Source: an uncultured bacterium (GTDB taxonomy: Bacteria > UBP4 > UBA4092). From it: 35,362 nucleotides of DNA. The notes below the pieces were generated by a model. It did not search any database and was not told the DNA's origin. It saw only the letters and a list, made by a program, of their open reading frames with translations. Of the stretch, positions 4,076-14,806 are shown in pieces (the first letter of the stretch is position 1; each line of letters opens with the position of its first letter). Location of the stretch: positions 1-35,362 of the forward strand of contig CAZXWN010000019.1 of NCBI GenBank assembly GCA_964644695.1, given 5' to 3'. The position numbers and the translations under genes are program-made.

Positions 4076-4852
4076 ATGAGAAACCGCATTGGGTGTTGGG
4101 TCATGATGGTGGGGCTGATGTGTTTTATGAGTACCATGTGTGTGGGGAAAAAGATTGTAAATAGTGAGCAGCTTGATTGGAATCAAAAACTGATTGAAGT
4201 CGCGGAAAACGGTGATGGAGAGCTGGGGCGGATTTTGATTGGGTATGGGGCGGATGTGAATTGGAAGAATGAAACCGGTGCTTCAGCTTTGTTCCGAGCG
4301 GTGGAGGGTGGTCATTTAGATTTTGTGAAGCTGCTGGCAGCTCACGGGGCGAACCTCAACCTGTTGGGGAAAGAAGATGAGTCGGTCCTGATGGTGGCCG
4401 CCATGATGGGACATGGGGAGATGGTGAGATATCTTTTGGGACAGGGAATCCGGGTGAATCAAAAAAACATTTGCGGTGAGACGGCTTTGAGTCTGGCGGT
4501 GCGTGGGGGACATGCGGAAATCGTCCAGATGCTTTTGGATAAACATGCTTTAGTGAATGTGACGGACAACACTCGCATGACGCCATTGATGGAGGCTGCA
4601 ACTCAAGGCCACTCCGACATCCTTCGGTTATTGTTGAGTCATAAGGCAAAAGTGAATATGTTAGATATCGACAAACGGTCGGCGTTGATGAAGGCGGTTA
4701 TCCGAGGTCATGAAGAAATCGTTGTCATCTTAATCAAGGCGGGTGCGGATATGAAGGTGAAGGATGCTGATGGACGGACCTGTCTGAATTGGGCCCGATG
4801 GATGGGACAGACACAGATTGCAAGGCTGTTAATGAAAGCCGGGGCGAAATAA
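4076..4852 (+). CDS. Ankyrin-repeat protein with signal peptide
   Basis: About 7 ankyrin repeats (GETALSLAVRGGH, TPLMEAATQGH). ATG 4076 is preferred over TTG 4070 from its spacing to AGGAGA. Confidence 0.92.
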   Translation: MRNRIGCWVMMVGLMCFMSTMCVGKKIVNSEQLDWNQKLIEVAENGDGELGRILIGYGADVNWKNETGASALFRAVEGGHLDFVKLLAAHGANLNLLGKEDESVLMVAAMMGHGEMVRYLLGQGIRVNQKNICGETALSLAVRGGHAEIVQMLLDKHALVNVTDNTRMTPLMEAATQGHSDILRLLLSHKAKVNMLDIDKRSALMKAVIRGHEEIVVILIKAGADMKVKDADGRTCLNWARWMGQTQIARLLMKAGAK

Positions 4853-5610
4853 TGATAAATAAAAGATGGCTGATGATTCTAGGGCTGTCGTTTATTCTTT
4901 GCTCATCAGGTTACAGTGAAAACCCGATGAGCCAGGAAGAATTAAACAATCATTTGAGAGTGAGTGTACAGTCGGGGAATGTTCAGTCTGCAGAGGCTTT
5001 GATTAAACAGGGTGCGGATGTGAATGCTGTTGAGAGAGGCGTTGAAAATTTAACTCTGTTGGAAACGGCCACGGATTATGGCAATTATGAAATGGTAAAG
5101 ATGTTAGTGGCTCAGGGTGCGGTGATGGAATCCAAAAAATATGAACCGTGGCCGTTATTGAAACGTGCCGCCGTGAGTGGAAATAAAGAAATCGTGAAAT
5201 TATATTTGGATAAAGGTTTGGATCCGAATGTGAAAGATGCCTGCGGTGATACGGTTTTGATATGTGCCGCTTATAACAATCATCCGGATGTGGTGAAATT
5301 GTTATGGGAACGGGAAGGCAGAGGGGATGAGGGGCGCTGCCCAACTTTAGTATGGTGTGCCGCTGCGGGTTTGAAAGACCAGGTAAAGCGAGAGTTAAAA
5401 CCAAACGTTAATGTGAATGTGAAATCCATTTGGGGGATGACTGCGCTCATGTGGGCCGCCAATAATGGGCATCAGGAAATTGTGAAATTACTCATTGCCC
5501 GGGGCGCTCAAGTAAATTTGAAATGTGGAGAGAGAACCGCACTTCAAATGGCTCGACAAAATGGTCATAAAGAAATCGTGTCGATGTTGAAAAAAACTGG
5601 GGCGAAATAA
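4852..5610 (+). CDS. Ankyrin-repeat protein with signal peptide
   Basis: Ankyrin repeats (GMTALMWAANNGHQEIVKLLIARGA). Start moved from 4789 to ATG 4852, which overlaps the upstream stop (TAATG) and begins a signal peptide MINKRWLMILGLSFILCSSGYS. Confidence 0.9.
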   Translation: MINKRWLMILGLSFILCSSGYSENPMSQEELNNHLRVSVQSGNVQSAEALIKQGADVNAVERGVENLTLLETATDYGNYEMVKMLVAQGAVMESKKYEPWPLLKRAAVSGNKEIVKLYLDKGLDPNVKDACGDTVLICAAYNNHPDVVKLLWEREGRGDEGRCPTLVWCAAAGLKDQVKRELKPNVNVNVKSIWGMTALMWAANNGHQEIVKLLIARGAQVNLKCGERTALQMARQNGHKEIVSMLKKTGAK

Positions 5611-8421: not shown

Positions 8422-8746
8422 AAGTAGAACTCCTTCCTCTAATGGGTCCATTCTAGCATTATCCAGGGGTAATTCAGGATTTCAATGGCGACAGGTCTTT
8501 TATAATGGCGCAAACCACAGGATTGGAACCCTTTTCAAATCAATGATAAATGAAATTAGAAAATAAATTTTTCTACAATAATAGTCGGAAATTAGTTTCC
8601 AAAAAGTGGGTTTGGATTCGAAGATTTGATGATTAGGGGGGATTATTATTCGAATAGACGGGTTCAACGATTCCTAAAAGGGGTGCTAATATATGAATTT
8701 GGTGCGAATGATGAAAATATAAGAAAATCCATTGAACTAAATTTGT

Positions 8747-8775
8747 TTGACATTATGATTCTAATCAATTATTAT
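8747..8775 (+). promoter_or_regulatory. Sigma70-type promoter with a palindrome in the spacer
   Basis: TTGACA (8747-8752), 17 bp, TATTAT (8770-8775). The spacer holds TGATT-CT-AATCA (ATGAT-N4-ATCAA). Confidence 0.7.
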
Positions 8776-8782
8776 AGTTTTC

Positions 8783-8908
8783 AGATAGCTAAGAGGTACT
8801 TTGAAGACCCTCCCCGGGTCGAGTAAGAGTACGGACGAGTTATCTACAAAACCCTAATTCCCTTTCCTTGTTGCCCGGTTTCGAACCCTTCGAGACCGGC
8901 TTTTTTTT
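8783..8908 (+). ncRNA. Candidate structured RNA (cis-regulatory leader or sRNA), family unrecognised
   Basis: Starts at the expected TSS of the promoter. Three nested helices (AGAUAGCU/AGUUAUCU, GUACUU/GAGUAC, GACCC/GGGUC), a pyrimidine-rich linker and a strong terminator. Confidence 0.55.
8875..8908 (+). terminator. Intrinsic terminator just upstream of the TPR gene
   Basis: CCGGTTTCGAA-CCC-TTCGAGACCGG (11-bp stem with one G-U pair), then C and T8. Confidence 0.85.
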
Positions 8909-8938
8909 ATCATAGAATCGGGTGAGTAGGATAAACTA

Positions 8939-9538
8939 TTGAGGATGATAAAAGAATGGATACAGAGGCCGTGGAGATTTTCCCGAGTGGTGATACTGGG
9001 GTTGGCCTGTATTGTGGGCGGATTTCTCGGGGGAGTTATCTATTCCGACCGAGTCTATGAGTCATTGCAACAGCAGGACGGTGTTCAATCGGTTGGGATG
9101 CCGGAGGGACATCCGGATGTTATGGAGATGATGGACCCGGAACTTCAATCCTTATTAGAAAAGGCATCCCAGGTACCCCGAGACCCGTTTCTACAGAAGA
9201 AGCTGGGAAACAAGTTTGCGGAGATGGGATTGTATGAGCGAGCTGTGGGGTATTATGAAGCCTCGTTGAAATTAACAGGACATCAACCGGAAGTATGGGT
9301 AGACTGTGGAATCATGTATCGGAATCTGGGGCAGAAAGAAAAAGCGTTGAAATATATTCAGCGGGGATTAAAAGAGGATCCGAAACTGGCACTGGGATGG
9401 TATAACCTGGGGGTAGTGTTGTACCACGACATGAACAATCCGAAGGAAGCCAAGCGGGCGTGGCAGAAGTATATCCAAATGGAACCCACCACAAGTCAGT
9501 CCAGTTCACTGCAGGTCTGGTTGAAATCAGCGCACTGA
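8939..9538 (+). CDS. Membrane-anchored TPR protein with P.GHP motif (resembles CcmI/CycH-type cytochrome c biogenesis accessory TPR proteins)
   Basis: One N-terminal TM, MPEGHPDV motif, about 3 TPRs (LGN.F..MG.YE.A..YY..SL; WYNLG.V.Y; A..AW.KY). Start may be TTG 8939 or ATG 8945. Confidence 0.75.
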   Translation: MRMIKEWIQRPWRFSRVVILGLACIVGGFLGGVIYSDRVYESLQQQDGVQSVGMPEGHPDVMEMMDPELQSLLEKASQVPRDPFLQKKLGNKFAEMGLYERAVGYYEASLKLTGHQPEVWVDCGIMYRNLGQKEKALKYIQRGLKEDPKLALGWYNLGVVLYHDMNNPKEAKRAWQKYIQMEPTTSQSSSLQVWLKSAH

Positions 9539-9778
9539 TATAAATATGAATGAGTGCTGTATGTGGCAGAGAGTAAATAGATGGACCACATTAAACGCAA
9601 GCAAGTTCCATATGAGGACTTGTTATAAATAACCAATTGCGTTTTTAGTTGTATAAATCCTACCGGTATTATTTTATTTTCATCGAATGGTTCAATATTA
9701 ATAAGGGATGGGGAATAGTGTATAATCGGTCAGACTGATAACAGTACTGACTTTAATAATTAGGTGGGAGTAATAAAT

Positions 9779-11098
9779 ATGTCATCATCGGCAGCCAAAC
9801 CGTCAGGTCGTGTCGAGGCCATTGATGCCTTTCGGGGCTTTACAATATTTGCCATGATTTTTGTAATCATGGTGGCGGGATACAAGAATCTTCCTTTTTT
9901 ATTTCCTCAGTTCGGGAGTGTTCCATTAACGACCTTCAAGCATGCGGGAGAAGGGGGTGACCCGGAGGAGTGGAGGCGATGGGAAGAATCTCATCCGGGG
10001 ACTCGGTGGTACATCGGGAATGTAAAATCGGTTAATGCGGATGGGACCTACAATGTTGCGGTGGATATCAACAGCACCACTCAGGAATTCCCCAAGTCGG
10101 TTGTATGGACAGGGAAGGTGATGAAGGCGGCGGACCCCAAGATTGAATATGCCGGTGATGAGGTTATCGGTGTTGAGAAAAACGGACAATGGACGTTTCA
10201 GCAGTCAGGCATCGGGGTAACCTTCTGTGATTTAGTGGCGCCGTTTTTTGTATTCATTGTGGGATTGTGTATTCCGTTATCAAGGATGGCCCGAGGAGAT
10301 GCCCGGTGGTGGAAACATGTTTTAATGAGGACAACAGGCTTAATCCTCCTAGGTGTACTTTATATTTCTCTGATATTAAAAGTGTCCTGGTGGTGGGGGA
10401 TTCTGCAGGCCATCGGAGTTGCCTATTTCATGGGCGCGGTAATTATGTTATTGCCAATGAGCGGCCGCTGGATCGCATTGGCGGCACTGGCAGGATTCCA
10501 CGCCTGGATGTCATTAAAGTTTCCGTGGTGGCTCACACTTGGAGAACCGGGAAAAGAGTTTTGGACTATCGTTGCACCGTTGGGAGATAAACTGCGGCCC
10601 CTGACTTTACACTGTACTCCATGGGGTTCCATCGGATATGGATTAACCACGATAGCGGGAACCTTTTTAGGGGAGGCGGTGGCAACAAAAGACCGAAAAC
10701 AAATCGTGTCCAAGTCCATCCTTTATGGAGTGATTTTCACAGCGATTGGATTAGTGATACATCAGTGGATCCCCATGCATAAAGACATCGTGTCTTCGAG
10801 TTATGGATTATTCACCGCCGGAATCGCCTGCTTCTTCTTCCTGGGATTTTATATGGTGATTGATATATTGGGCTGGAAGCAGGGATGGGTGTGGTTTTTG
10901 GGAGTCTTTGGTGCGAATGCATTGCTGGCCTATTTCATGCAACCTGTGGTGCGGATATTTCTGCAGGCCCTGGGGATATATTCAGGACTGGGTGGACAGG
11001 CAGGCTGGGGAGGAATGTATAAGGGAGTGTTATGGACATTATTATTGTGGTGTGTGGTGTTGGTCTGTAACCGGAAGAATATTTACTGGAAATTATAA
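9779..11098 (+). CDS. HGSNAT-like (heparan-alpha-glucosaminide N-acetyltransferase / DUF5009-type) membrane acyltransferase
   Basis: R..AIDAFRGFTI..MI.V; FKHA; G.T..DLV.PFF.FIVG..IP.S; WGILQAIG.AY; P.HK...S.SY.L..AG; FG.NAL.AY. ATG 9779 follows GGGAG. Confidence 0.85.
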   Translation: MSSSAAKPSGRVEAIDAFRGFTIFAMIFVIMVAGYKNLPFLFPQFGSVPLTTFKHAGEGGDPEEWRRWEESHPGTRWYIGNVKSVNADGTYNVAVDINSTTQEFPKSVVWTGKVMKAADPKIEYAGDEVIGVEKNGQWTFQQSGIGVTFCDLVAPFFVFIVGLCIPLSRMARGDARWWKHVLMRTTGLILLGVLYISLILKVSWWWGILQAIGVAYFMGAVIMLLPMSGRWIALAALAGFHAWMSLKFPWWLTLGEPGKEFWTIVAPLGDKLRPLTLHCTPWGSIGYGLTTIAGTFLGEAVATKDRKQIVSKSILYGVIFTAIGLVIHQWIPMHKDIVSSSYGLFTAGIACFFFLGFYMVIDILGWKQGWVWFLGVFGANALLAYFMQPVVRIFLQALGIYSGLGGQAGWGGMYKGVLWTLLLWCVVLVCNRKNIYWKL

Positions 11099-11155: not shown

Positions 11156-11464
11156 CATAAGGTGCGAATGGAATTTGTAGTATTCCAGTTTGAGGTGTTA
11201 CACCTTCCCCCTTCGTTTCTGGTTCGTTGGTGAGAGGGAAATTCCGAATGAAAACAAAAGGGCGGATGGTTATCCGCCCGGTCAGATTATCAAAATTGTA
11301 TGAGAGATGATTTGTTACCAGAGAGACAGGTCTCCGAAGTAGGGGTCATCCAGATCCCGGAGGAAGTCGATATCACTGACATTGATTTTACCGACGACAT
11401 CGCTGTTAGCAATGAACTGGAATTGATGATAACTGTTTCGTCCAGGGCCGATGACATAATGATA
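11156..11464. repeat. 309-bp perfect direct repeat, copy 1 (last 150 nt of SBBP gene A plus 159 nt downstream)
   Basis: Identical base for base, by eye, to 18350..18658 (offset 7194). Confidence 0.95.
11251..11279 (-). terminator. Intrinsic terminator of SBBP gene A
   Basis: Minus strand GGGCGGAT-AACC-ATCCGCCC-TTTTGTTTT. Confidence 0.8.
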
Positions 11465-14400
11465 ACCATCGTTGATTCGGCCGAACTCCGCGGATGCCAT
11501 CAACTGCCCCCCGGTACTCCAGAAATCATAACTTCCATTGGAAGGGACTCCGTATAATGCCATGAGGACAATGGACCCATAGGAGTCCAGAGCGCCGGCC
11601 GTTTTTTCAACATAGGCCTTGAATCCGACTTCATGGTCCGGCATGGAACTGGGAGTATAGACTCCAGTATGGTTAAGTTGTGCGGTCAGTTTCTTACCGT
11701 ACTGGATGCCGGTTGTGGCTTTAGAGAAATCGAATTGAACCGCATCATCGACGATATTCAGAGGACAGTCGCCCTCGGTTGTGGACCAACCGTAGGACAG
11801 GTCTGTAAGACTTGAGAAACTACGGTAAGGATATTTCAAAGCACTTTGACTACGGGTATCAATGACATAAGGGATATCGTCCATAATATTTATTTCATCA
11901 ATATAGAGAACACTTTGTTTGGTGCCGGGTTTGAGAATTAGCTGTACATATCCCCTACCAGGTTCCTGGGTATATACGGGGGCTTCAATCCAAGTCCACA
12001 CGGTGGGTACTCCAAAGAGAATGTTACAAGCGATATCCACATGGGGACTGTTGGGGATTGTGCCGTTGAAGTTAAACAGTCCAACCTGGAGGTCATTATT
12101 GGGCGTTGGAGACATGAGTCTCATGCGGGCAATGCCCCATTGATTTTCACTATAATAACGCCATTGGTTAGTACTTGGAGTGAGTTTGATGGCCTGATTG
12201 GTTGAAGTAAAACTGAATCTCCAAACATCACTCGCGATTTGTCCTTTTGAGTCTATTATCTGGGGCAAGTATCCCCATTCTGGAGTAGCCGAATAATCGG
12301 CAAGCATTTCTTTTCCCCAGTCTCCCCAGACCCATTGGGTGGTATCCATCATGTCGCCAATCGGCAATTCATTCGACCAAGTATCAAACCGTTCTTTATC
12401 CATGTCCGGGCCATAGGGAGGTTCACTTTTGGGGGAAGCAATAATATCTACGGATAGACGGTACCCACGATAATAATAACCGGTGATACTCAAGAATAGG
12501 GTGGTTGGATTGATCCATGTGACATTAAGAAGTTTATGGTCATAGATCAAGGAACTGTCATTCCCAAAAGATTCCGGGATAGCAGGTCCGGCCGAGGAAG
12601 TGACATATTGTGACATGTCGATATAGACAGAACTGGTATAGGGAAATGCAAAATGGGGCAGCTTGGAAATTCGATAGGTGGTGATTTTAATGGGAATCCT
12701 AGCGGTGTTAATTTGACCTGAGGAATTCAGGTCAATGTATAAATAACCAGTAGTAGGTTGATTCCATGAACTTAGTGATATAGTTCCATTTGATAACGTT
12801 CCAAGTCCCAGAAAGTTGCCAGATAATGTATAGGGTCCTTGTCCCACCGGATCATAATCAGAGACAGCCAAGGCATTGGGAAGGGATTCTCCCAAGACTA
12901 ATTTGATGGCAGGGAAATCAATGGTACTGGACCCAAACACATGAATATAATTTATCTGACCGAAGGTTGTTGTGCTTAATGAATTTGCGACGGACAGACT
13001 GACGGAATATCGACCTGCAGTGGTATAGGTATGAGTTGGATTTTTAATTGTGGATGTTTGCCCATCCCCGAAATTCCAATTCCAGGAATTAGGGGCCCCC
13101 ATAGTTTCATCCATAAAAGGAACACTCAAAGGAGCCACACCCCGGACCGTTACTGATGAAAACTTTGGCTGAAGATACCAACCTGGCTTAACTTTGGCAA
13201 TAAATCCATCGTATGCACCACCCTTAAAAGTAGTCTGCAACGAATTTACAGTACAAGGGAATGCGGTAGATGACTCTGTCCATCCGGCAACCCACACACT
13301 CCCATCGAAACTTTGAGCAACACTGTAGGCATAATCATGATCTGGTCCACCAAAGAGTGTGGAATGAACCATTGTATTCGTTCGTGTATCCATCCGCACA
13401 ATGTAGATCTGGAACCTTCCATTCTGGGTCGTATCCATCGCGCCGGGACTGCAGGGGAAATAGGCTAACCCTCCAGTTTGTCCAATCAAAGTAACGAATC
13501 CAATTGTGTCTGTTGAAATATTCCATCCGGTTTCAGAATAGTTCCCTCCAATGAAAGTGGAGTAATCCAAACCACTGCCATCTGCTTTTAAAATTGTGAA
13601 GAGTCCATCCCCCAAACCGGTGTTGATTTTGTCATAAGCATTTGCTGTTACCGGGTAGTTTGTTGAACTCGAATATCCAGTGAGAATGAGTCTTCCATCA
13701 GGAAGAATGTCACTTCCCATCGAATAATCATCACTTGAGCCACCCAGGAAAGTGGAATAAATCAACGATGTACCGTCAGCACTTATTTTTAGAGCAAAAA
13801 CATCACTGTAACCACCATTGTAATTTGTATCATAAGCATTTAGTGTGACCGGGAAATTTGTTGAATTGGTTCCCCCCGCCAGTTGGATATTTCCATCAGC
13901 ATCAAGATTGATATTTTTGATATAAGTTTCATCACTGCTTCCCCCAATAAATGTGGAAAAGAGAACTGAATCGCAGGCATTGGTCAGTTTCATGAGGAAG
14001 ATGTCCAAGCCACCATTATAGGTTGTATCCAGTGCACTCACGGTGACTGGAAAGTTTGCTGAATTAGTTTGACCTGTGAGAAGGATGTCTCCGGTTGAAT
14101 CCAGTTTAATGCTTGAGATGGATTCATATCCCTGTCCACCCAAATATGAGCAATATTTGATTTGACTGCCATCTGAACTTAAGCGCATCAGGAAGGCATC
14201 ATTGGATCCTCCATAAAGGGCGGTACTAATCGCATGAGAGGTGACAGGTAAATCTGTAGAGTTGGTATATCCTGCCAATAATATATCCCCATTAGTATCG
14301 ATTGCTAATGTCTCACCCATGTCATTACCAGAACCCCCTAAAGGCCCGATTACATTCGAGACGGTTCCGTTATTATTCATCCTTAGAATGAAGGTGTCAT

Positions 14401-14653
14401 AATCTGGTTGAGTTGTTTTATCGGAATAAAAGCCTGAACTGATGGAATACATAACTGCCAGGACACCCCCATCTCCAGAAGGGATTATGTTACGAAAAAA
14501 GTCTCGGTCATTTCCCCCCAGAAGGGTGGAGTATTCAAGATAATTCGCGGTTTGTCCATTAGTTAGTTTTGCGGCATTTACGGGCGAGATAAGTGAAAGG
14601 ATAAGAACAGATAAAAATCCCAACAGAAAACGGTAAGGTTTATAGCAGGACAT
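11315..14653 (-). CDS. Secreted SBBP beta-propeller + PKD domain protein, paralogue A
   Basis: Signal peptide; repeats of YST(F/Y)(L/I)GG..D...D..G.I...G.T.S.NFPVT..A.D; PKD motif WNFGDG.TS...NPTHTY...G.Y.V.L; about 520-aa C-terminal beta-rich region. Start set to ATG 14653 (GGAGG SD, homologous to the start of paralogue B). Confidence 0.9.
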   Translation of the reverse strand: MSCYKPYRFLLGFLSVLILSLISPVNAAKLTNGQTANYLEYSTLLGGNDRDFFRNIIPSGDGGVLAVMYSISSGFYSDKTTQPDYDTFILRMNNNGTVSNVIGPLGGSGNDMGETLAIDTNGDILLAGYTNSTDLPVTSHAISTALYGGSNDAFLMRLSSDGSQIKYCSYLGGQGYESISSIKLDSTGDILLTGQTNSANFPVTVSALDTTYNGGLDIFLMKLTNACDSVLFSTFIGGSSDETYIKNINLDADGNIQLAGGTNSTNFPVTLNAYDTNYNGGYSDVFALKISADGTSLIYSTFLGGSSDDYSMGSDILPDGRLILTGYSSSTNYPVTANAYDKINTGLGDGLFTILKADGSGLDYSTFIGGNYSETGWNISTDTIGFVTLIGQTGGLAYFPCSPGAMDTTQNGRFQIYIVRMDTRTNTMVHSTLFGGPDHDYAYSVAQSFDGSVWVAGWTESSTAFPCTVNSLQTTFKGGAYDGFIAKVKPGWYLQPKFSSVTVRGVAPLSVPFMDETMGAPNSWNWNFGDGQTSTIKNPTHTYTTAGRYSVSLSVANSLSTTTFGQINYIHVFGSSTIDFPAIKLVLGESLPNALAVSDYDPVGQGPYTLSGNFLGLGTLSNGTISLSSWNQPTTGYLYIDLNSSGQINTARIPIKITTYRISKLPHFAFPYTSSVYIDMSQYVTSSAGPAIPESFGNDSSLIYDHKLLNVTWINPTTLFLSITGYYYRGYRLSVDIIASPKSEPPYGPDMDKERFDTWSNELPIGDMMDTTQWVWGDWGKEMLADYSATPEWGYLPQIIDSKGQIASDVWRFSFTSTNQAIKLTPSTNQWRYYSENQWGIARMRLMSPTPNNDLQVGLFNFNGTIPNSPHVDIACNILFGVPTVWTWIEAPVYTQEPGRGYVQLILKPGTKQSVLYIDEINIMDDIPYVIDTRSQSALKYPYRSFSSLTDLSYGWSTTEGDCPLNIVDDAVQFDFSKATTGIQYGKKLTAQLNHTGVYTPSSMPDHEVGFKAYVEKTAGALDSYGSIVLMALYGVPSNGSYDFWSTGGQLMASAEFGRINDGYHYVIGPGRNSYHQFQFIANSDVVGKINVSDIDFLRDLDDPYFGDLSLW
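11435..11650. repeat. 216-bp perfect repeat shared by genes A and B, copy 1
   Basis: Identical to 14927..15142 (offset 3492); near-identity continues to about 11870. Confidence 0.92.
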
Positions 14654-14806
14654 AAAACAACCTCCAACAGAATCCCCGATTCGTTGGAAAAATATATAAA
14701 TCAAGGTAGATTAAATGTATAACGCATTCCGGATATTAGCAAGTCCGGTTTTTAACCCACTGGGACACTTGATGTTTGGGTTTCAGATTTTAAACAAGAG
14801 AATCTT

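What the first reader, a model, noticed from the sequence alone, without database searches (positions are those of the whole stretch)
8747..8945. Unrecognised structured RNA between a consensus promoter and a terminator: candidate new riboswitch/attenuator or sRNA
Seen: TTGACA-17-TATTAT, then AGAUAGCU[AAGAG]GUACUU[UGAA]GACCC(UCCCC)GGGUC[GAGUAA]GAGUAC[GGACG]AGUUAUCU (8783-8845), a U/C-rich linker, and an 11-bp terminator with U8 ending only about 30 nt before the TPR gene. Known: opposed GAA/AGUA strands are the loop-E/sarcin-ricin motif, typical of functional RNAs. Seen: GGGUCGAG (8816-8823) can alternatively pair with UUCG(A)ACCC (8880-8888), which would break the terminator. Inference: either a transcriptional switch controlling the TPR gene, or an independent ~125-nt sRNA with C-rich anti-SD seeds (UCCCC loop, UUCCCUUUCCUU). 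I cannot match it to any riboswitch class I know.
Basis: partly seen in the sequence, partly recalled or inferred. Interest (0 to 1): 0.72.

Follow-up and report, generated by a model that had tools for sequence, protein, structure and literature searches.

The report
Conserved small RNA beside TPR gene
This is a short, strongly conserved non-coding RNA gene in an uncultured bacterium that most likely silences a pilin-like gene by base-pairing; it shows no sign of being a riboswitch, and no expression data were available.

Summary
The promoter-like site (8747-8775), the three-tier hairpin (8783-8845), the unpaired C/U-rich linker (8846-8874) and the 11-bp terminator with U8 (8875-8908) are all present. 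Rfam has no match.

Only one other genus (G001) has a homologue, plus one 97%-identical strain contig (L061).

- **G001:** promoter hexamers and spacing are kept, and linker plus terminator are about 94-96% identical, with 41 nt in an unbroken identical run. The 5' hairpin sequence is not alignable. The adjacent TPR protein is only 35% identical.
- **L061:** 0 differences in 8747-8956, against 20 in the 295 nt just upstream.

Conservation sits in the single-stranded linker and terminator, not in a folded 5' domain. This fits a trans-acting base-pairing sRNA and argues against a riboswitch. The proposed antiterminator is about 20 kcal/mol worse than the terminated fold and is absent in G001.

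The linker's best complement in the genome covers the ribosome-binding site and start codon of a prepilin-like gene (-34.4 kcal/mol; rank 1 of 2523 crude gene starts). A different prepilin-like paralogue scores best in G001. Hfq is encoded.

Expression is untested. The RNA-TPR adjacency survives rearrangement, so a leader role is not excluded.

The parts
8747..8775 (+). Promoter-like site: -35 TTGACA (8747-8752), 17-nt spacer, -10 TATTAT (8770-8775). The inferred transcription start is about 8782-8784.
   Evidence: 11 of 12 matches. G001 has the same hexamers and spacing, TTGACA-17-TATCAT, also 11 of 12. There are 0 differences in strain contig L061. The start site is inferred, not shown.
8783..8845 (+). 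5' three-tier hairpin that begins at the inferred +1, with apical loop UCCCC. It is probably a 5' stabilising stem-loop, and its loop may be a second C-rich seed.
   Evidence: MFE -24.6, z -3.99, 0 of 200 shuffles. There are 0 of 126 differences across the sRNA in L061. The sequence is not alignable with G001, but G001 also has a long imperfect hairpin (74 nt, -27.4) starting at its inferred +1.
8846..8874 (+). Single-stranded C/U-rich linker (ACAAAACCCUAAUUCCCUUUCCUUGUUGC), the proposed seed.
   Evidence: Mean unpaired probability over 8846-8873 is 0.91. It is 100% identical in G001 and lies within a 41-nt identical run. It is complementary to the translation start region of the prepilin-like gene G000:C8:92996-93601(-), duplex -34.4 kcal/mol.
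8875..8908 (+). Intrinsic terminator: 11-bp stem, 3-nt loop, then C-U8. It may also be the Hfq-binding 3' end.
   Evidence: In G001, 9 of 11 pairs are unchanged and 2 change on one side while remaining paired (U-G to U-A, A-U to G-U). There are 0 compensatory double changes.
8909..8938 (+). Spacer of 30 nt between the terminator and the TPR start codon. It contains the ribosome-binding region and a GGATAAACTAT block that is also present before the G001 TPR gene.
   Evidence: 0 of 48 differences in 8909-8956 in L061. The shared block is seen. A weak promoter-like site (9 of 12) at 8890-8918 is not conserved in G001.
8939..9538 (+). Membrane-anchored TPR protein (199 aa from TTG 8939), the only neighbour that stays next to the RNA in G001.
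   Evidence: Pfam TPR families. No specific NCBIfam family reaches its cut-off. The G001 orthologue is 35% identical (66 of 191) and aligned in register from residue 15.

Best explanation
The region 8783-8908 is an independent gene for a small regulatory RNA of about 125 nt. It is transcribed from the promoter-like site at 8747-8775 and ended by the intrinsic terminator at 8875-8908.

The RNA has three modules:
- a 5' hairpin beginning at the first transcribed base, whose shape but not sequence is kept, most likely protecting the 5' end;
- an unpaired C/U-rich linker that serves as the seed;
- a terminator hairpin with a U8 tail, the usual binding platform for Hfq, which this genome encodes.

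The linker resembles an anti-Shine-Dalgarno sequence. It is proposed to pair with purine-rich ribosome-binding sites and so block translation initiation. The best candidate target is the monocistronic prepilin-like gene at G000:C8:92996-93601(-), where the predicted duplex covers the ribosome-binding site and the AUG.

**Shown here:** the anatomy, the conservation pattern, the complementarity and the presence of hfq.

**Inferred:** transcription, the 5' and 3' ends, Hfq dependence, repression of the pilin-like gene, and whether some transcripts read through into the TPR gene.
For: **1. The conservation pattern is that of a seed-bearing sRNA.**
- Between two genera the linker plus terminator are 94% identical over 67 nt (E 3.1e-23). 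Mean column identity is 96% over 69 columns, with 41 identical bases in a row.
- Orthologous proteins are far less alike: 35% (TPR), 56% (UPF0182) and 63% (444-aa protein).
- The 5' hairpin sequence does not align.
- Promoter hexamers and spacing are kept.

**2. A 97.1%-identical strain contig (L061) shows local constraint.**
- It has 0 differences in 8747-8956 (210 nt).
- It has 20 differences in the 295 nt immediately upstream, 56 of 2097 in the UPF0182 gene and 16 of 566 in the TPR gene.
- If the 20 intergenic differences fell evenly over the 505 nt, the chance that none hit the 210 nt is about 2e-5 (my arithmetic).

**3. The seed is accessible.** Its mean unpaired probability is 0.91.

**4. 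A target candidate stands out.**
- In an ungapped complementarity scan of both strands of the 3.07-Mb genome, the best non-self site scores 50 against 36.5 for the next.
- It lies antisense over the ribosome-binding site and start codon of a prepilin-like gene.
- The duplex energy is -34.4 kcal/mol.
- Among 2523 crude gene-start windows it ranks first. The next is -26.4, the median is -10.4 and the first percentile is -20.5.
- Among 41 prepilin-like starts, 0 of 100 shuffled linkers reach it (shuffle minimum -28.4).

**5. G001 shows a similar signal.** The identical linker pairs best with another prepilin-like start (L082, -27.1 kcal/mol, covering the GGAGG ribosome-binding site). This was among 21 starts recovered from 23 fetched loci out of 38 matches. 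0 of 100 shuffles reach it; the shuffle minimum is -26.1.

**6. Hfq is encoded.** PF17209 scores 88.4 bits, above its cut-off.

**7. Coding explanations are excluded.** There is no shared leader peptide and no ORF of 40 aa or more on the opposite strand over 8783-8908.
Against: - **No expression data.** No run on record as RNA holds the locus. The four runs laid were probably DNA contigs.
- **Too few homologues.** Only two genera carry the RNA, so covariation cannot be tested. The terminator shows 0 compensatory changes among 11 pairs.
- **The genome-wide target statistic is modest.** 1 of 80 shuffled linkers produced a genomic match at least as good, 53.5 against 50.
- **The target is not a conserved orthologue.**
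  - The closest G001 relative of the G000 target (59% identical) pairs only at -15.1.
  - The G001 best-pairing gene shares no neighbours with the G000 target.
  - The family is large, with 32 to 60 matches per genome, which gives many chances for a match.
- **41 invariant bases exceed what a seed normally needs.** This hints at an additional constraint such as a protein site or a cis function.
- **RNA and TPR gene stay adjacent despite rearranged flanks**. In G001 no other consensus promoter lies in the 210 nt before the TPR gene. This fits a leader role.
- **Consensus promoter matches are at chance frequency in this genome**.
Confidence: 0.55

Rival explanations
1. The RNA is a cis-acting leader or attenuator of the TPR gene. 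Transcription from 8747-8775 normally stops at the terminator, and a trans factor binding the invariant linker and 5' arm of the terminator allows read-through into the TPR gene. The factor would be an RNA-binding protein or another RNA, not a small-molecule aptamer. The short RNA would then be a by-product, or would have a second role in trans.
For: - RNA and TPR gene are adjacent in both genomes although the neighbours differ. The upstream gene is UPF0182 in the window and an AraC-type gene in G001. The G001 UPF0182 orthologue is on another contig, and the 444-aa neighbour lies 11 kb away.
- In the window only 30 nt separate the U-tract from the TPR start codon.
- In G001 the scan finds no other promoter-like site in 1200-1900.
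- 8909-8956 also has 0 of 48 differences in L061.
- The 41-nt invariant run reaches into the 5' arm of the terminator.
Against: - No alternative fold competes with the terminator. The forced antiterminator gives -21.2 against -41.4 kcal/mol.
- The 5' domain is not conserved.
- The distance from terminator to TPR start differs sevenfold, 30 nt against about 210 nt.
- There is no shared leader peptide.
- The G002 TPR homologue has no such element upstream.
- The linker does not pair with the TPR start regions beyond the genome median, at -10.0 to -11.8.
- A weak 9-of-12 promoter-like site at 8890-8918 could serve the TPR gene in the window.
Confidence: 0.2
2. It is a small RNA that acts by binding or sequestering a protein rather than by base-pairing with mRNAs. 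The invariant linker plus terminator would be the protein-binding surface.
For: The unbroken 41-nt identity between genera is more than base-pairing seeds usually need. Target complementarity falls on non-orthologous paralogues in the two genomes.
Against: - No repeated protein-binding motifs are evident in the linker by eye.
- CsrA, the best-known sequestered regulator, was not found in this 98.67%-complete genome, and the RNA lacks GGA repeats.
- The 27-pair duplex with a translation start region ranks first genome-wide. A protein decoy would not be expected to show this.
Confidence: 0.1
3. It is a classical metabolite riboswitch of a new class. The 5' hairpin would be the aptamer and the terminator the expression platform.
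For: The hairpin has sizeable internal loops, including GAA opposite AGUA, and lies between a promoter-like site and a terminator directly before a gene. It is invariant in the close strain.
Against: - The putative aptamer is the least conserved part between genera, while the linker and terminator are nearly invariant. This is the opposite of riboswitch behaviour.
- The antiterminator is about 20 kcal/mol less stable than the terminated fold.
- No Rfam family matches.
- There is only one copy in the genome, and the element is absent from 3 of the 5 genomes of the phylum.
Confidence: 0.04
4. It is not a functional element: a chance promoter-like match, a stable hairpin and the terminator of nothing in particular.
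For: Consensus promoter matches occur at chance frequency in this genome. There are no expression data.
Against: - Identity with another genus is 94-96% where proteins are 35-63% identical.
- The close strain has 0 of 210 differences here against 20 of 295 next door.
- Promoter hexamers are conserved at the same spacing.
Confidence: 0.03

Closest known systems
RoxS/RsaE-type sRNAs of Firmicutes (C-rich regions pairing with Shine-Dalgarno sequences). The properties are recalled, not taken from a call.
   Same: A short RNA with its own promoter and an intrinsic terminator. Unpaired C-rich stretches are complementary to purine-rich ribosome-binding sites, and the predicted action is to block translation initiation.
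   Different: There is no sequence or structure match: no Rfam family reaches gathering score. The main seed here is one long C/U-rich linker rather than several CCCC loops. The organism belongs to a different, uncultured phylum, and the candidate target is a prepilin-like gene rather than central-metabolism genes.
LhrC family of Listeria (Rfam RF00616)
   Same: It gave the only sRNA-type weak Rfam match, over 8835-8906, which is the linker plus terminator. From recall, LhrC uses CU-rich UCCC motifs to bind ribosome-binding sites.
   Different: The score is 17.4 bits against a gathering score of 110, with E 6.1, which is noise level. This RNA is not a member.
Xanthomonas sX13 (recalled: C-rich loops that target G-rich motifs in mRNAs, including type IV pilus-related genes)
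   Same: A C-rich seed pairing with G-rich 5' regions, and a pilus-related candidate target.
   Different: This RNA is unrelated in sequence (no Rfam match). Its seed lies in a linker rather than in hairpin loops. From recall, sX13 acts independently of Hfq. The role of Hfq here is unknown, though the gene is present.
Terminated leaders that also act in trans (recalled example: SreA/SreB, the SAM-riboswitch-derived RNAs of Listeria)
   Same: A short terminated transcript lies directly upstream of a gene on the same strand and has a plausible trans target elsewhere in the genome.
   Different: There is no conserved aptamer and no alternative fold here. Read-through into the TPR gene has not been shown.

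Membership tests
Any curated RNA family (Rfam 15, 4227 models), including all riboswitch classes | Score at or above the family's gathering threshold | tested here: not met
   0 matches at gathering score in the whole window. With E up to 10 on 8450-9000 there were 10 matches, all far below gathering. The best was snoR120 at 24.7 against 55; LhrC scored 17.4 against 110.
Riboswitch (generic) | A ligand-binding 5' domain that is more conserved than the expression platform | tested here: not met
   The 5' hairpin is not alignable between G000 and G001, while the linker and terminator are 94-96% identical.
Riboswitch or attenuator (generic) | Mutually exclusive terminator and antiterminator folds of comparable stability | tested here: not met
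   The forced antiterminator gives -21.2 against MFE -41.4 kcal/mol. In the nascent transcript it gives -16.5 against -27.4.
Ribosome-mediated attenuator | A conserved leader peptide | tested here: not met
   The window has a possible 17-codon frame from a TTG. The same frame in G001 has no start codon and shares only the last three residues, which lie in the conserved nucleotides.
Trans-encoded base-pairing sRNA (Hfq-type architecture) | Its own promoter and an intrinsic terminator with a long U tail | tested here: met
   An 11-of-12 promoter-like site conserved in G001, and an 11-bp stem plus U8 in both genomes. The transcript itself has not been observed.
Trans-encoded base-pairing sRNA (Hfq-type architecture) | A conserved, accessible single-stranded seed | tested here: met
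   Linker unpaired probability is 0.91. The linker is 100% identical in G001.
Trans-encoded base-pairing sRNA (Hfq-type architecture) | Complementarity to a translation start region beyond chance | tested here: met
   -34.4 kcal/mol, rank 1 of 2523 crude gene starts. 0 of 100 shuffles reach it within the pilin-like family, in both G000 and G001. However, 1 of 80 shuffled linkers finds an equally good site somewhere in the genome, and the target genes are not orthologues.
Trans-encoded base-pairing sRNA (Hfq-type architecture) | The chaperone is encoded in the genome | tested here: met
   Hfq (PF17209) scores 88.4 bits, above its cut-off, at G000:C1:66781-66969. Binding was not tested.
Trans-encoded base-pairing sRNA | A discrete transcript of the predicted size, and a regulatory effect on the target | not testable with these tools
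   No RNA holder was listed. The four runs laid were probably DNA contigs.
Loop-E / sarcin-ricin motif | GAA opposite AGUA within a helix, conserved in homologues, with the S-turn geometry | tested here: inconclusive
   The strands are present: GAA at 8803-8805 opposite GAGUA at 8821-8825. This part of the RNA has no alignable counterpart in G001. The geometry cannot be tested here. The motif consensus is recalled.

The most novel reading that the evidence does not exclude
The RNA and the TPR gene form one conserved two-part unit in an uncultured candidate phylum. A transcript ends at a very strong terminator, releasing a trans-acting RNA that shuts off a particular prepilin-like paralogue. 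Regulated read-through, through a factor recognising the 41-nt invariant linker and terminator arm, would switch on the membrane TPR protein. One promoter would then set a choice between surface-fibre subunits and an assembly or partner protein. This would be a protein- or RNA-dependent antitermination element of a kind not yet described, combined with a trans-acting leader.
Probability: 0.12. Interest if true: 0.6.

Novelty: new member of a known kind. Interest (0 to 1): 0.36.

Why it matters
Regulatory RNAs are essentially unknown in uncultured candidate phyla. Two full-text searches turned up no paper on this RNA or on small RNAs in this lineage, judged from titles and abstracts only, and Rfam has no model for it.

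The genomes of this phylum each carry dozens of prepilin-like genes, with 32 to 60 matches per genome. How one of many paralogues is chosen for expression is an open question. A small RNA that masks the ribosome-binding site of a single paralogue would be one answer.

The practical value is a concrete, testable RNA-target pair and a seed alignment for a future RNA family. The finding does not bear on riboswitch discovery.

Tried and rejected
**Searches for more homologues**
- Rfam at gathering score and at E up to 10 gave nothing usable.
- BLAST of 8740-8915 against 40 relatives found only G001. All other hits had E of 0.008 or worse and were short.
- The phylum holds only 5 species genomes, so a wider search inside it was impossible.
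- A covariance model of linker plus terminator (R1, built from 2 sequences) found only G000 and G001 at about 103 bits. The next hit (28.1 bits, E 0.0045) is the ordinary terminator after a pilin-like gene in G001. The G004 hit at 23.2 bits is not alike either.
- A degenerate 22-nt linker pattern was scanned in the large collections.
  - Metagenome contigs: 9 loci, of which 1 is real (L061).
  - Genome contigs: 4 loci, of which 1 is real (L067, which carries the same RNA sequence as G001; its record title reads 'bacterium UBP4_UBA6127').
  - The other 11 loci have no terminator or flank similarity and are taken as chance.
- The same kind of pattern with up to 3 mismatches in the 5 genomes gave two extra G001 sites and one G002 site.
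  - None lies at a gene start.
  - The reversed control pattern also gave 1 hit, so these sites are at chance level.
- The region upstream of the G002 TPR homologue holds no such RNA. That gene follows a membrane pyrophosphatase-like gene and its terminator.

**Expression**
- No RNA holder was listed.
- Laying X14, X16, X17 and X18 gave only low-depth contigs, flagged 'probably DNA', and told nothing about a transcript.
- One X16 contig spans 8687-8967. Its only listed differences are at 8727 and 8729, upstream of the -35; two further differences are not listed.

**Other tests**
- The terminator has 0 compensatory changes, and two sequences give no statistical power.
- The linker pairs with the TPR start regions at only -10.0 to -11.8 kcal/mol, about the genome median, so autoregulation by pairing is rejected.
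- Neither G001 locus shares neighbours with the G000 target gene, so positional orthology is rejected.
- CsrA was not found.
It was replaced by an ungapped scan.
- Earlier findings by place (near) and by sequence returned nothing.
- For both literature searches only the listings (titles and abstract starts) were seen. No paper was opened.
Full report
**Observation.**

- A sigma-70-type site, TTGACA-17-TATTAT, lies at 8747-8775 with 11 of 12 matches.
- Seven bases later the stretch 8783-8845 folds into a three-tier hairpin with stems of 8, 7 and 5 bp, internal loops AAGAG/GGACG and GAA/GAGUA, and apical loop UCCCC. Its energy is -24.6 kcal/mol, against a shuffle mean of -13.8 (sd 2.7), z = -3.99, and 0 of 200 shuffles fold as well.
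- The terminator at 8875-8899 has 11 pairs, 6 of them G-C, a 3-nt loop and a C-T8 tail.
- The whole 133-nt stretch folds at -41.5 kcal/mol, z = -4.19, and leaves 8846-8873 unpaired. The mean unpaired probability of the linker is 0.91.

One caveat applies. Matches of at least 11 of 12 to the promoter consensus are as common in this genome (118) as in shuffled copies (119, 124, 110). The promoter match carries weight only because it is conserved, as described below.

**Known families.**

No Rfam family reaches its gathering score anywhere in the window. A permissive scan of 8450-9000 lists 10 matches with E up to 10, all noise. The best is a eukaryotic snoRNA model at 24.7 bits against a threshold of 55. 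LhrC scores 17.4 against 110 over the linker and terminator.

**Where else it occurs.**

The element is single-copy in its 3.07-Mb genome. The phylum has only five species genomes in the collection.
- BLAST against 40 relatives finds the RNA in one other genome, G001, of the same family but another genus. The covariance model of linker plus terminator, run on the phylum's five genomes, gives the same result.
- Pattern scans of the large metagenome and genome collections add one strain-level contig (L061) and one titled record carrying the G001 sequence (L067, title 'bacterium UBP4_UBA6127'). The other 11 of 13 loci are chance matches.
- G002, G003 and G004 lack it. The G002 TPR homologue has no such element upstream.

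**The conservation pattern decides between the readings.**

*G001.*
- The -35 and -10 hexamers and their 17-nt spacing are kept: TTGACA-17-TATCAT, 11 of 12.
- The RNA again begins with a long imperfect hairpin at the inferred +1 (74 nt, -27.4 kcal/mol). The hairpin's sequence cannot be aligned with that of the window.
- From 8844 onward, linker and terminator are 94% identical over 67 nt. This includes 41 identical bases in a row.
- The four differences lie in the terminator. Two are in its loop. Two are in its stem, where they keep pairing (U-G to U-A and A-U to G-U) without any double change.
- Orthologous proteins of the two genomes are much less alike: 35% (TPR), 56% (UPF0182) and 63% (444-aa protein).

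*Strain contig L061 (97.1% identity over 3169 nt).*
- It has no difference at all in 8747-8956.
- It has 20 differences in the 295 nt just upstream, 56 of 2097 in the UPF0182 gene and 16 of 566 in the TPR gene.

The element is therefore under purifying selection. Between genera the selection bears on the unpaired linker and the terminator rather than on the folded 5' domain. A riboswitch would show the opposite pattern.

**The switch proposal.**

- In the nascent transcript, before the 3' arm of the terminator is made, it gives -16.5 against -27.4.
- It requires opening the stable 5' hairpin, and I saw no counterpart in the different 5' domain of G001.
- A ribosome-dependent attenuator is also unlikely. 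The window's possible 17-codon frame has no start codon in G001 and shares only the residues encoded by the conserved nucleotides.

**A candidate target.**

An ungapped complementarity scan (G-U allowed) of the 31-nt linker against both strands of the genome gives one outlier, score 50 against 36.5 for the next site.
- The site lies antisense over the ribosome-binding region and AUG of a 201-aa gene at G000:C8:92996-93601(-).
- That gene has a prepilin N-terminal methylation motif and weak GspG/pilin similarity. A terminator-like site follows it.
- The duplex is -34.4 kcal/mol, about 26 pairs with three single interruptions.
- Among 2523 crude gene-start windows it ranks first. The next is -26.4, the median -10.4 and the first percentile -20.5.
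- Against the 41 prepilin-like starts of the genome, no shuffled linker reaches it (0 of 100; minimum -28.4).
- The genome-wide control is weaker: 1 of 80 shuffled linkers finds a match at least as good somewhere (53.5; mean maximum 39.3, sd 2.9).

In G001 the identical linker pairs best with another prepilin-like start, covering its GGAGG (L082, -27.1). This was among 21 starts recovered from 23 fetched loci out of 38 matches. 0 of 100 shuffles reach it; the minimum is -26.1.

Three points count against the target.
- The closest G001 relative of the G000 target pairs only at -15.1.
- The two candidate targets share no neighbours.
- The family has 32 to 60 matches per genome.

I therefore treat the target as a good lead, not as established.

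**Supporting context.**

The genome encodes Hfq (88.4 bits). No CsrA was detected in this 98.67%-complete assembly. That a terminator hairpin with a long U tail is the usual Hfq-binding module is established knowledge, recalled here and not tested. Likewise recalled is that a hairpin at the very 5' end protects transcripts from 5'-dependent decay. This would explain a 5' domain whose shape, but not sequence, persists.

**The TPR gene.**

RNA and TPR gene are neighbours in both genomes although everything around them differs.
- The upstream gene is UPF0182 (divergent) in the window and an AraC-type gene in G001.
- The G001 UPF0182 orthologue is on another contig, and the orthologue of the 444-aa downstream gene is 11 kb away.
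- In the window the U-tract ends 30 nt before the probable TTG start at 8939. In G001 the gap is about 210 nt, with no other promoter-like site in the scan.

Some read-through into the TPR gene, or co-regulation, is therefore plausible, and I keep a leader or attenuator role as the main rival. The linker does not pair with the TPR start regions beyond the genome median. The TPR protein matches no specific family; all NCBIfam hits are far below their cut-offs.

**What could not be done.**

- No run on record as RNA holds the locus, and the four runs I laid were low-depth contigs flagged as probably DNA. Expression, transcript ends and read-through remain untested.
- With two sequences there is no power for covariation.
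- The loop-E reading of GAA/AGUA cannot be assessed: the strands are there, but that part has no alignable homologue.

**Comparison with known systems and verdict.**

In architecture and predicted action this RNA works like the C-rich, ribosome-binding-site-masking sRNAs known from other bacteria (RoxS/RsaE, LhrC and sX13; their properties are recalled). It is a member of none of them.

Two full-text searches found no paper describing it or any small RNA of this lineage. Only listings were read.

It is best filed as a new member of a known kind: a real, conserved, unannotated small RNA gene of narrow distribution. The riboswitch reading is rejected and the cis-leader role remains open.

My confidence figures are:

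| Claim | Confidence |
|---|---|
| It is a functional RNA element | about 0.9 |
| It acts mainly in trans by base-pairing | about 0.55 |
| The named prepilin-like gene is a true target | about 0.4 |

Noticed in passing
G000 genome-wide; for example G000:C8:92996-93601, G000:C2:43965-45894: There is a very large family of prepilin-like proteins with the N-terminal GFTLIELL motif. G000 has 41 such N-termini, and the five genomes of the phylum have 32 to 60 matches each.
   Followed up: partly
window 9522 onward: The 97%-identical strain contig L061 stops matching the window at 9522, just before the end of the TPR gene, and continues with about 1 kb of unrelated sequence. A contig of run X14 has a 255-letter loose end at the same place. 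This looks like a strain-variable junction.
   Followed up: no
window 8929-8939 and L002 1761-1771: The block GGATAAACTAT lies directly upstream of the TPR start codon in both G000 and G001, although the rest of that spacer is unalike. It may be the ribosome-binding region or a regulatory site.
   Followed up: no
G000 whole genome: Near-perfect sigma-70 consensus sites (at least 11 of 12) are no more frequent than in shuffled sequence: 118 against 110-124. Promoter-consensus scans have little predictive value in this organism.
   Followed up: partly
L055 1501-1522 (+ strand) and L056 1501-1522 (+ strand), both in G001: These are G-rich stretches complementary to the RNA's linker at 3 mismatches. 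Each is followed within about 30 nt by a terminator-like hairpin, and neither lies at a gene start. They are at chance level by the reversed-pattern control, but could be other small RNAs or sponge-like sites.
   Followed up: partly
window 4789-5610, 11315-14704 and 9764-11098: Neighbouring genes include an ankyrin-repeat protein (273 aa) and a 1129-aa protein with PKD and beta-propeller repeats. A 444-aa membrane protein has only a weak NagX-like acyltransferase match, 43 bits against a cut-off of 480.
   Followed up: no
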